From the human T2T-CHM13v2.0 reference genome, Homo sapiens: DNA of 64,000 nt. The stretch spans positions 18,400,001 to 18,464,000 of the forward strand of contig CP068257.2 of the NCBI GenBank assembly GCA_009914755.4. The letters are read 5' to 3'. Positions 12,501 to 15,500 of this stretch are shown here, piece after piece. Position 1 is the first letter of the stretch. Each line of letters starts with the position of its first letter. The position numbers are program-made.

Positions 12501-15500
12501 CCTTTTCTTTTGGGTCTCTAGTTACATCTATGTTAAGTATTTTTATATTGCCTCACAAGTTCCTGATACTTTGTTCATTATTATTTCTAATCTTACTTCT
12601 TTTTGTACATCAGATTAGATAACTATTTTATTGATCTGTATTCATTCTCACTTATTTTTCTGTCCTCCTAATCTTCTGCTAGGGTCACTTGGTGATTTTT
12701 TTTTTTTTTTTTTTGCTATAATTTTCTGTACTGTGTCTTTCAGTTGTTTAACTTCTGCTTTTCTTTTGTAACAATTTTTTTTTTTTTTGTCTTTGAGCAT
12801 ACTTTCTGGCGTACTGATTCTAACACCAAAGTCACCACTGGGTTGGCCTTCATTTTCATTTTCCTTGAGTATGGGTCACACTTGCTGTTACTTTATATGC
12901 ATAGAAATTGGTATCCTGTCTTAGATATTATGAATAGTAAAGTTTGAAGACTTTGGATTCTGTTTTTCAAAGTTATTTGTATTAAATTTTAAAAAAACCC
13001 AGACAGTTAGTAAGAGCTACATTCAGACTCTAAACTAAAATCTTATATCAGTTATTTTCACCTGACTTGTGCTGCTAGGAATGTAACTATGAATGCATAC
13101 TTTAAAGATCAGACAGAGATTTGAGCAGAGACTATGCAAAGAGTTGCTTTTTTCTGCAGTTGTCTCTGTTTCAAAGTTTGCCCTTTTTGCATACATCTTA
13201 GATTCAGTTATTTGGTTCTTCAAAGAAGACTACAGTTTTTCCATTTGGAATTTAACCAGCCCACAATTGGGGTGTGCCCTCAGGCAGAAATGGACAGATT
13301 GGTAACTCTCCCAGTACGTTTTTCTCTGCCAATGGCCTTCTATTCTTGTTCACTCTGCAATGCCCTCAATTGGTTGTGATTTCTCATAATTTATACTTAT
13401 TTGCAGAAGGGACTGGTTGATTTAATAGAAGCTACTATACCAGGACCCAGAAAATGAATTTTTAATTGTAGGGCAATAATTTTTTTTTTCTGAAACATTC
13501 AATAATCGTTGATATCCTTGTGTTTCTTCCCTATTCTTAATCTATAATTCTGTGACACGCTTGGAAAGTTATCCTATTTCTCCAAGTATTCTATTTTGAG
13601 GTTGACACTATTTATTGAAAACCTTAGTAATAATTGGCCAAAATATCCTGAACTTGCAGTGTTTTAATCTCATTTTGTTTGAACCCTATAGGCATAACAT
13701 AATACAGATATGACAGCATTTTTTTTATTTCTCCATTAACTTATGTTGTTAAGTCCAACGGCTTCAAGGTGAAGCAGTTGCTATAATATTTATGAAAGTC
13801 ATATTGTTGCAGAGTCCATTACAAGAAAGGAAGCAGCTGGATCACAGGTTTTAGATATAACTTTTACTGCCCAAGGCTGTTATTTAAACTCCAGGACTGA
13901 CTAAAGTGGTGTGATCACCATTTTTCAAAACATACTTACCATTTTCACTTGATTTTAGCCAAAAGGCTGAGAAGCAATAACTTACCATTTTCTATTAGTA
14001 TTTTCTATGAAGCCAGAACCAAAACATATGAGGACAACTGCATTTATACATATATCCATATTATATTTAGCATTCCATTTTTTTGGTCATAAACAACACT
14101 GAGAGGTCTTAATAGTGTTCATTTTGTGATTTGATAAGAAACATATTCAAAATTCTGATGAGCAGATGTTTTCTGCGGTTTTTTTTTAGCTATCATCAAC
14201 AATAGAGCTCCTTTAAGAGAATATCATGAAAATCATTTAGCTCTTATGTGTAGTATAAAATGTGATAGTTTAGATAGCATTGCAAATGAATGCTGACTAT
14301 AGAAAAAAATGTTGGAGGAAAAAAGACAGAGTAGGCAAACAGAATTTTTAAAGATTTCTTGCTAGTTTTAATTTTGAAACAGGACTTTTCTCTGGCTACC
14401 TTATATTGAAGACTTTTTGTGTGATTTCATCACTCTCATGACTGAAATCTCAGATTTTTATTTCTAGCCAAGATTTTTCTCTTAAATACACACACTGTAT
14501 ATGTTATATTATTAATATGTTGTACATATTAATAATATAATAAAATATAAATTATATATGCATGTATCTATCTATATATACACACATATATATACACACA
14601 TATAATTCTATATAATAGTATTTAATTTTTTTACATCACACTTTGAGGATGGACTTTGAGAAGGAAATGTCGGTGTGAGGAGTTTCATGGACCCATATGC
14701 CAATGAAACAACAATGTCTGTTAAAAATTTTTAAAATAAAGTCTCTGGAAATTATCCTGAGCAGATAAAACCAACTAATAGACATTATTTTAAAAATACC
14801 CTAAAATATAGTAAATCTCGGTAAGAACAAGGAAAATCTGTGTGCTTGAGCTTTAACCTACCAACTTTTTCTTTCCCCATCTCCCATTCTGGAATAATAG
14901 AAACACCATTCTGGGTACTGTGGCCATGAAAATGGGATTCTCGCTTTCCTCAGCTACTAATCAGTAGAAGCAGAAAGCCTACAATTTTTAATCTACACAG
15001 TTTTTGGTGAAGAGTCTAAATTCCAGGCAAGTGTGTGGCTAAGAAATCTGTTGCTCCTTCCCTCTACTTGGCACCTCGGATTAAACAGCAGGCTATACCC
15101 CAAGTATGGCAGACTGAGAACACTGGGGTCGTTTATCATCATCCAGACCACTCATAAAGAGGAAAATGGATATGAGGAAGATGAGAGGCTGCCACCCTTG
15201 CCTAGCACCATACTTAGAAAACAGAGATGTCCCCAGCACTTTGGGAGGCTGAGGCGGGTGGATCATGAGGTCAGGAGTTCGAGACCAGCCTGACCAACAT
15301 GGTGAAACCCCATCTCTACTAAAAATACAAAAGTTAGCCAGGTGTGGTGGTGCGTGCCTGTAATCTCAGCTACTCAGGAGGCTGGGGCAGGAGAATCGCT
15401 TGAACACGGGAGCCAGAGGTCACAGTGAGCCGAGATCATGCCACTGCACTCTAGCCTGGGTGACAGAGCGAGCCTCTGTCTCAAAAAACAACAACAACAA

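What the first reader, a model, noticed from the sequence alone, without database searches (positions are those of the whole stretch)
13934..13992. 33-nt antisense copy of the U2 snRNA 5' terminus flanked by perfect 13-bp direct repeats
The + strand 'cacttgattttagccaaaaggctgagaagcaat' is the reverse complement of U2 snRNA nt 1-33 ('ATCGCTTCTCGGCCTTTTGGCTAAGATCAAGTG'). It has only three transitions, two of them at CpG positions, the expected decay signature. It is bracketed by identical 'acttaccattttc' repeats that look like a target-site duplication. The fragment contains the exact snRNA 5' end but is truncated at its 3' side, the opposite of ordinary L1-mediated retroposition. This points to an RT template switch onto a snRNA, as in the known U6/L1 chimeric retrocopies, or to another small-fragment capture event. 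Insertions of short snRNA 5' fragments with TSDs are not a routinely annotated class.
Basis: partly seen in the sequence, partly recalled or inferred. Interest (0 to 1): 0.5.

Follow-up and report, generated by a model that had tools for sequence, protein, structure and literature searches.

The report
Ordinary truncated U2 snRNA retropseudogene
This is a 33-base dead copy of the start of U2 spliceosomal RNA, pasted into a primate genome by the LINE-1 copying machinery; it belongs to a well-catalogued class with hundreds of near-identical examples in the human genome, so it is ordinary.

Summary
Window 13946-13978 (minus strand) matches human U2 snRNA nt 1-33 at 30/33. All three differences are transitions, two of them at CpG sites. 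Perfect 13-bp direct repeats flank it at 13934-13946 and 13980-13992. Both features are unique in the window and far beyond chance.

This is not a U6/L1-style template-switch chimera, because nothing lies between U2 nt 33 and the downstream repeat: no L1, Alu or poly(A) partner. Nor is it an unannotated class. It meets every testable criterion of a "tailless" (heavily 3'-truncated) snRNA retropseudogene:
- the 5' end is complete;
- the truncation falls in the single-stranded linker after stem-loop I;
- there is no A-tail;
- the target-site duplication is 12-13 bp and begins (G)AAAA next to the insert's 3' end, the signature of LINE-1 endonuclease nicking and target-primed reverse transcription.

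The class dates from 1981-84. Doucet 2015 found 57 of 58 characterised human U2 copies to be 3'-truncated. Noll 2015 listed 676 human U2 tailless copies. In a sample of 157 of these, 60% are 33-36 nt long and 14 are exactly 33 nt.

I could not retrieve an orthologous empty site with these tools. Verdict: already known, low interest.

The parts
13946..13978 (-). Retroposed copy of U2 snRNA nt 1-33, covering the 5' single-stranded end, stem-loop I and the linker up to G33. It is 30/33 identical to human U2. It lacks nt 34-188, so it has no branch-point recognition sequence, no Sm site and no 3' stem-loops. It is non-functional.
   Evidence: alignment, 0/100 shuffles. (Rfam U2 model positions 1-33 aligned at posterior probability ~1; the structure line shows nt 7-26 as stem-loop I and nt 27-33 as unpaired).
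13980..13992 (.). Target-site duplication, the copy at the 5' side of the insert in U2-sense orientation. It reads GAAAATGGTAAGT on the minus strand.
   Evidence: perfect 13/13 match to the other copy.
13934..13946 (.). Target-site duplication, the copy at the 3' side of the insert in U2-sense orientation. On the + strand its 3' end (...CCATTTT(C)-3') is the inferred primer left by the first-strand nick. Base 13946 (C, pairing with U2 G33) could come from the target or from U2, a 1-nt junction microhomology.
   Evidence: The role as primer is an inference from the target-primed reverse transcription model.
13979..13979 (.). A single extra base (A on +, T in U2 sense) between the 5' TSD copy and U2 nt 1. 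It is a filler base of unknown origin at the 5' junction, and it is not the G expected from copying the cap.
   Evidence: Noll 2015's screen tolerates up to 5 non-matching nt at the 5' end.
13993..13994 (+). Bases just downstream of the inferred first-strand nick in the ancestral target. The + strand read 5'-CCATTTT(C)/TATTAG-3'. In insert orientation this is TA/GAAAATG, against the published tailless consensus TT/WAAAAWW and the L1 consensus TT/AAAA.
   Evidence: Empty site reconstructed. Consensus sequences.

Best explanation
The feature is a 'tailless' (heavily 3'-truncated) processed pseudogene of U2 snRNA. It corresponds to Group III of Doucet et al. 2015, Class IV of the early-1980s classification as mapped by Doucet 2015, and the U2 tailless retropseudogenes of Noll et al. 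2015. It was made in trans by the LINE-1 retrotransposition machinery in a primate ancestor.

Mechanism, with shown and inferred steps marked:
1. L1 endonuclease nicked what is now the window's + strand after a T4 run, 5'-CCATTTT(C)/TATTAG-3'. This is inferred from the TSD starting (G)AAAA in insert orientation.
2. The freed 3'-OH primed reverse transcription not on a poly(A) tail but inside a U2 snRNA, at G33. That position lies in the single-stranded linker between stem-loop I and the branch-point recognition sequence. The position and its unpaired status are shown. Internal priming, as opposed to use of a pre-truncated RNA, is inferred from the literature.
3. cDNA synthesis ran to the exact 5' end of U2 (shown: the copy starts at nt 1).
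4. A second nick 12-13 bp away on the other strand, followed by fill-in, produced the perfect 12-13 bp target-site duplication. The duplication is shown; a single filler base sits at the 5' junction.

The copy has no promoter and lacks 155 of U2's 188 nt, so it is inert. It has since taken three transitions, including loss of both its CpGs.
For: The copy matches U2 nt 1-33 at 30/33, starts exactly at nt 1, is unique in the window, and appears in 0 of 100 shuffles. The Rfam U2 model gives E=3.5e-4, and its structure line marks nt 27-33 as unpaired. The flanking repeats are a perfect 13-bp pair. No base lies between U2 nt 33 and the TSD, and there is no A-tail. In insert orientation the TSD begins G-AAAA-TG. 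This fits the published tailless target logo TT/WAAAAWW, which has one base at the break followed by four As, and the TTTT/A-like sites reported for 3'-truncated snRNA copies.

Class frequency also fits. Of 58 characterised human U2 copies, 57 are 3'-truncated and 50 of those 57 carry a TSD. [quoted passage not shown] Noll 2015 lists 676 human U2 tailless copies. For the first 157 listed, lengths have a mode of 35 and a median of 36; 14 are exactly 33 nt and 60% are 33-36 nt.

The element passes every numerical filter of Noll's screen: 5' overhang of at most 5 nt (here 1); at least 10 nt missing at the 3' end (here 155); TSD of 8-35 nt at 70% identity or better (here 13 nt at 100%); gap between the 3' end and the TSD of at most 15 nt (here 0); identity above 69% (here 91%); length of at least 30 nt (here 33).
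Against: No orthologous empty site could be retrieved, so the insertion is inferred from anatomy alone.

The nick site is only near-consensus. The T4 core is present, but the base after the nick is C or T rather than A. The base at the break is G rather than the W of the logo.

Complementarity between the target and U2 at the priming point is minimal, at 1 nt. An apparent longer similarity between the target and U2 nt 31-46 is not significant: 4111 of 5000 shuffles score as well.

Internal priming cannot be told apart from use of an already truncated U2 fragment using this one copy.
Confidence: 0.9

Rival explanations
1. The machinery is the same (L1 target-primed reverse transcription), but the template was an already cleaved or degraded 5' fragment of U2 ending at about nt 33. 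It may have carried a very short oligo(A) tag from nuclear surveillance. In that case there was no internal priming on an intact U2.
For: The TSD begins with AAAA directly after U2 G33, so up to four As could in principle have paired with a short A-tag. Doucet 2015 notes that oligoadenylated snRNA decay intermediates exist and may feed poly(A)-extended pseudogenes.
Against: The AAAA is present in both TSD copies, so it is target sequence, and no extra As are present. Noll 2015 searched the human genome for A-tailed U2 and 5S copies truncated at the breakpoints, and searched small-RNA cDNA libraries for matching truncated RNAs. They found neither, and concluded in favour of internal priming.
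Confidence: 0.1
2. A template-switch chimera of the U6/L1 kind. L1 RT starts on an L1, Alu or mRNA poly(A) tail and then jumps onto the snRNA.
For: L1 RT does template-switch onto snRNAs, and Group IV chimeras are well documented.
Against: The defining 3' partner is absent. Zero bases separate U2 nt 33 from the TSD, with no poly(A) and no L1 or Alu fragment. Flanks from 13000 to 15000 have no L1 or Alu similarity next to the site. Only 1 of 58 characterised human U2 copies was repeat-associated. Template-switch chimeras normally carry the snRNA up to or near its 3' end, not its first 33 nt.
Confidence: 0.02
3. Endonuclease-independent capture of a U2 cDNA or DNA fragment at a chromosomal double-strand break, by non-homologous or microhomology-mediated end joining.
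For: The nick site is not a perfect TTTT/AA, and there is a 1-nt filler at the 5' junction. [quoted passage not shown]
Against: From general knowledge, break-repair capture usually gives no TSD or a target deletion. Here there is a clean 12-13 bp duplication whose first bases are (G)AAAA, placed exactly at the insert's 3' end, and the insert orientation matches priming from the T-run. The breakpoint falls in the hot spot shared by hundreds of L1-type U2 copies.
Confidence: 0.04
4. A chance resemblance to U2, or a local slippage duplication with no RNA intermediate.
For: The target region is mildly repetitive. The right flank TTAGTATTTTCTA (13995-14007) is 85% like the end of the TSD.
Against: A 30/33 match anchored at U2 nt 1 occurs in 0 of 100 shuffles. 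By my own binomial estimate it is expected about 1e-5 times in a 3-Gb genome. Slippage cannot create a U2 sequence between the repeats.
Confidence: 0.005

Closest known systems
U2 tailless retropseudogenes (Noll, Raabe, Churakov, Brosius, Schmitz 2015, GBE, PMC5322556); equivalent to Group III 3'-truncated snRNA processed pseudogenes (Doucet et al. 2015, MBE, PMC4476161) and the 3'-truncated U2 pseudogenes of Van Arsdell & Weiner 1984
   Same: Everything testable matches: an exact U2 5' end, truncation in the single-stranded linker at nt 33 (within the predominant 33-36 nt size class), no A-tail, a perfect 13-bp TSD, and an A4-containing L1-type target.
   Different: Nothing substantive differs. 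Minor points: G rather than A/T at the break position, only 1 nt of junction complementarity, and one filler base at the 5' junction.
tRNA-derived tailless retropseudogenes (Schmitz et al. 2004, as cited)
   Same: The same architecture and proposed mechanism: a 5'-complete, 3'-truncated copy ending in a loop or single-stranded region, no oligo(A), a TSD, and L1 machinery.
   Different: The source RNA is a pol III tRNA rather than the pol II-transcribed, capped U2 snRNA.
U6/L1 and other snRNA/L1 template-switch chimeras (Buzdin 2002 and Garcia-Perez 2007, as cited; Group IV of Doucet 2015)
   Same: An snRNA sequence mobilised in trans by L1 RT and flanked by a TSD.
   Different: Chimeras have a 5'-truncated L1, Alu or mRNA 3' segment with poly(A) downstream of the snRNA. 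That segment is absent here, so the defining feature fails.
Self-primed U3 pseudogenes (Bernstein, Mount & Weiner 1983, cited)
   Same: A 3'-truncated snRNA pseudogene flanked by short direct repeats.
   Different: That model has the snRNA's own 3' end fold back to prime cDNA synthesis at a fixed site. For U2 copies, current surveys favour priming by the nicked target DNA.

Membership tests
Tailless / Group III 3'-truncated snRNA retropseudogene | Sequence derived from a small nuclear RNA and 5'-complete (starts at nt 1; at most 5 nt of non-matching overhang) | tested here: met
   30/33 identity to U2 nt 1-33, starting at nt 1, with 1 extra base.
Tailless / Group III 3'-truncated snRNA retropseudogene | Heavily 3'-truncated (at least 10 nt missing), with the breakpoint in a loop or single-stranded segment of the source RNA | tested here: met
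   155 of 188 nt are missing. The breakpoint G33 lies in nt 27-33, marked unpaired in the Rfam U2 consensus structure. It falls in the 33-36 nt size class that makes up 60% of 157 catalogued human copies.
Tailless / Group III 3'-truncated snRNA retropseudogene | No oligo(A) tail and no retrotransposon partner at the 3' end | tested here: met
   U2 nt 33 abuts the TSD directly. The AAAA is duplicated target sequence.
Tailless / Group III 3'-truncated snRNA retropseudogene | Flanking target-site duplication of 8-35 nt, at least 70% identical | tested here: met
   13/13 perfect, or 12 nt if the shared G/C is assigned to U2.
Tailless / Group III 3'-truncated snRNA retropseudogene | Target site resembling the L1 endonuclease site (TT/AAAA; tailless logo TT/WAAAAWW) | tested here: inconclusive
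   Observed TA/GAAAATG. The A4 core and its one-base offset from the break are present, but the break base is G and only one upstream T is present. This is compatible, but a single site cannot prove endonuclease use.
Tailless / Group III 3'-truncated snRNA retropseudogene | Insertion polymorphic across lineages, with an empty orthologous site holding one copy of the TSD | not testable with these tools
   No primate genome collection is available. An exact-ORF look-up and a metagenome scan with the left flank plus TSD returned nothing.
snRNA/L1 template-switch chimera (Group IV) | snRNA joined at its 3' side to a 5'-truncated L1, Alu or mRNA 3' end with poly(A), all inside one TSD | tested here: not met
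   No sequence lies between U2 nt 33 and the TSD. There are no Alu/SRP or L1-like hits adjacent to the site.
Functional U2 snRNA gene (Rfam RF00004) | A full-length U2 of about 188 nt with the branch-point recognition sequence, Sm site and 3' stem-loops, scoring above the gathering threshold | tested here: not met
   No hit at gathering threshold. The local score is 29.8 bits against a gathering score of 46, and only model positions 1-33 truly align.

The most novel reading that the evidence does not exclude
The most novel reading not strictly excluded concerns the landing site. The duplicated target contains a perfect 5' splice-site consensus: minus strand ATG/GTAAGTAT, which on the + strand equals the first 9 nt of U1 snRNA. 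It sits 8 nt downstream of a branch-point-like TACTAAT. On this reading, a U2 snRNP engaged on splice-signal-like sequence in a nascent transcript was captured locally by L1 RT, so spliceosomal RNAs would insert preferentially at splice-signal-like DNA. The evidence does not favour it. GGTAAGTAT occurs once in the window, and 32 of 100 shuffles contain at least one copy. No published target logo for these elements shows splice-site features.
Probability: 0.02. Interest if true: 0.5.

Novelty: already known. Interest (0 to 1): 0.05.

Why it matters
It matters little beyond correct annotation. The element is one more inert by-product of LINE-1 activity. Such copies are mildly useful as homoplasy-poor presence/absence markers for primate phylogeny and as indirect read-outs of past L1 activity (Noll 2015; Doucet 2015). 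The practical lesson for the scan is that short fragments holding the first ~30-60 nt of an snRNA, 5S, 7SK or tRNA, bracketed by A-rich-starting TSDs, should be filed as tailless retropseudogenes and not flagged as a new class.

Tried and rejected
1. Extended complementarity between the target site and U2 downstream of nt 33. By eye, GGTAAGTATGTTTT resembles U2 GTGTAGTATCTGTT. Local alignment scores are matched by 4111 of 5000 and 1849 of 2000 shuffles, so I rejected it. Only 1 nt of junction microhomology stands.

2. A paralogous empty site. BLASTN of 13000-15000 against the whole window shows that the flanks of the insertion are single-copy. The target is therefore not inside a repeat with other copies to compare.

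3. An orthologous empty site. An exact-protein look-up of the nearest sizeable ORF (13134-13379) found nothing on record. A scan of JGI metagenome contigs for the left flank plus TSD (CAAAACATACTTACCATTTTC) found nothing. No primate genome resource is available, and I did not identify the locus or gene.

4. Searching the Doucet 2015 and Noll 2015 supplements for this TSD or insert sequence. The tables hold coordinates only, so there were no sequence matches. Van Arsdell & Weiner 1984 (PMC318589) is not held and is cited only through Doucet's reference list.

5. Other snRNA, 5S or 7SK fragments in the window. The Rfam E-value scan shows only Alu-derived SRP and miRNA-family hits plus this one U2 hit.

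6. Splice-site or U1-like content of the TSD as a meaningful signal. It is consistent with chance.

7. Residual structure. The 33-mer keeps only the 4-bp top of stem-loop I, with z=-1.0 against shuffles. This gives no hint of function.

8. SINEU-type SINEs with snRNA heads (Kojima 2015, listed). I rejected this because no SINE body or tail follows the 33 nt.

Full report
**What is there.** The window is primate-like genomic DNA: 35% G+C, CpG observed/expected 0.21, and many Alu elements.

At the reported coordinates the + strand reads acat-ACTTACCATTTTC-acttgattttagccaaaaggctgagaagcaat-a-ACTTACCATTTTC-tattag. Exact matching puts the two 13-mers at 13934-13946 and 13980-13992, and the U2-like 33-mer at 13946-13978.

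The reverse complement is ATTGCTTCTCAGCCTTTTGGCTAAAATCAAGTG. It aligns without gaps to human U2 snRNA nt 1-33 at 30/33.

**Is it more than chance?** Yes, on several counts.
- The U2 33-mer with up to 3 mismatches occurs once in the window and in 0 of 100 dinucleotide-preserving shuffles.
- Rfam's U2 covariance model finds it with E=3.5e-4 in a local search and E=0.041 over the whole window. It is the only snRNA-family hit among 60 sub-threshold matches; almost all the others fall in SRP and miRNA families that I read as Alu or simple-repeat matches (one, mir-214 at 23490-23564, was not examined).
- It stays below the gathering score (29.8 against 46 bits; no hit), simply because only 33 of about 190 model positions are present.
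- The 13-mer repeat has only these two copies even with a mismatch allowed.
- Among the perfect direct repeats of 12 nt or more at 25-120 bp spacing in the 64 kb, I judge only about five not to be low-complexity, and this is one of them.

**Anatomy in the orientation of the inserted RNA (minus strand).** The sequence reads ...AATACTAATA | GAAAATGGTAAGT | T | U2 nt 1-33 | (G)AAAATGGTAAGT | ATGTTTTG...

Four points follow directly from it.
1. The copy begins exactly at U2 nt 1, preceded by one filler base.
2. It ends at G33 and abuts the downstream repeat with no intervening base. There is no A-tail and no L1, Alu or mRNA fragment.
3. The repeat begins (G)AAAA on the side next to the insert's 3' end. 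On the window's + strand this gives a T4 run ending in a 3'-OH (…CCATTTT(C)/TATTAG) immediately followed by U2 antisense cDNA. That is the geometry expected if an L1-endonuclease nick primed reverse transcription.
4. The Rfam consensus structure printed shows nt 7-26 as stem-loop I and nt 27-33 as unpaired. The truncation therefore lies in a single-stranded linker, just before the branch-point recognition sequence.

**Comparison with what is known.** Doucet et al. 2015 (PMC4476161) surveyed human snRNA copies.
- Of 58 characterised U2 copies, 57 are 3'-truncated and 50 of those 57 have TSDs.
- Truncations cluster in single-stranded segments. There is short complementarity at the 3' junction. 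The inferred nick sites resemble TTTT/A, with a one- or two-base shift for U2.
[quoted passage not shown] This is distinct from Group IV template-switch chimeras. They state that most U2 copies are Group III.
- They trace the class back to Van Arsdell et al. [quoted passage not shown]

Noll et al. 2015 (PMC5322556) call the same elements 'tailless retropseudogenes'.
- They extracted 2,402 clean human cases from RepeatMasker screens made with a library of RNA genes. Their derived target logo is TT/WAAAAWW.
- They list 676 human U2 cases.
- I tabulated the first 157 U2 entries of their Table S2. Lengths have a mode of 35 and a median of 36. Sixty per cent are 33-36 nt and 14 are exactly 33 nt.
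- The present element passes each of their numerical filters. Its target TA/GAAAATG shows the A4 core one base after the break, as in their logo.

**Mechanism.** The best-supported account is L1 target-primed reverse transcription in trans on U2 snRNA.
- The endonuclease nicks after the T4 run.
- Reverse transcription initiates internally at the unpaired G33, where the only demonstrable primer-template pairing is the terminal C:G.
- The cDNA runs off the 5' end of U2.
- Second-strand cleavage 12-13 bp away gives the duplication.

What is shown: the sequence anatomy, the breakpoint's structural context and the class statistics. What is inferred: endonuclease use, and internal priming as opposed to use of a pre-truncated RNA. 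Noll et al. argue for internal priming because they found neither A-tailed copies truncated at the breakpoints nor matching truncated RNAs. This single locus cannot decide that point.

**Rivals.**
- Break-repair capture is disfavoured by the clean, A-rich-starting TSD and by a breakpoint shared with hundreds of copies.
- Chance and local slippage are excluded statistically.
- An eye-catching similarity between the target and U2 nt 31-46 is not significant.
- The perfect 5' splice-site consensus inside the TSD (GGTAAGTAT, whose complement is the U1 5' end) is compatible with chance, since 32 of 100 shuffles contain at least one copy.

**Age (inference only).** Both CpGs are lost. One of 29 non-CpG insert sites and none of 26 TSD sites have changed. 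This suggests an insertion some tens of millions of years old, with very wide uncertainty. It is compatible with the anthropoid-stem burst reported for this class.

**What could not be done.** No primate genome collection is available, so I could not retrieve the orthologous empty site. The flanks are single-copy in the window, so there is no paralogous empty site either. I did not identify the chromosomal locus, so I could not check whether this copy is one of the catalogued 676.

**Verdict.** The element is a textbook U2 tailless retropseudogene. It is already known, inert and of low interest.

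Noticed in passing
window 13932-13940 (- strand GGTAAGTAT; + strand ATACTTACC) and 13997-14003 (- strand TACTAAT): The target-site duplication contains a perfect 5' splice-site consensus, equal on the + strand to U1 snRNA nt 1-9. A branch-point-like TACTAAT followed by AG lies 8 nt upstream on the minus strand. The insertion duplicated the 5'ss-like motif. The 9-mer occurs once in the window, and 32 of 100 shuffles contain at least one copy, so this is probably coincidence.
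   Followed up: partly
window 13982-14007: The ancestral target carried an imperfect 13-nt tandem, TTACCATTTTCTA / TTAGTATTTTCTA (85% identity), right at the insertion point.
   Followed up: no
window 63396-63998 (+), running off the window end: A 201-codon open frame that is still open at the window edge. It has a coiled-coil-like N-terminal part and a proline-rich C-terminal part, and there are long open frames on the opposite strand too. There is no Pfam hit above threshold (only a weak DivIVA-like coiled-coil match, E=0.0046) and no PDB sequence match. It may be a degenerate retroelement gag-like remnant or a real exon; this is unresolved.
   Followed up: partly
window 7243-7563 (+): An ORF with a strong match to the L1 ORF1p dsRBD-like domain (PF17490, E=9e-27), so a LINE-1 fragment lies about 6.5 kb from the U2 copy. 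It is unrelated to the insertion junctions.
   Followed up: partly
window 50570-50770 and 35445-35540: (TATA/CACA)-type simple repeats that give spurious sub-threshold Rfam hits to the mir-297, mir-466 and mir-3688 families. Many Alu copies likewise give sub-threshold SRP, mir-1268 and mir-3135 hits.
   Followed up: no
window 19532-19586 and 8894-8958: Short minisatellite-like tandem arrays (period 12 with about 4 copies; period 22 with 3 copies). They account for the other non-low-complexity short direct repeats found when scanning for TSD-like pairs.
   Followed up: partly
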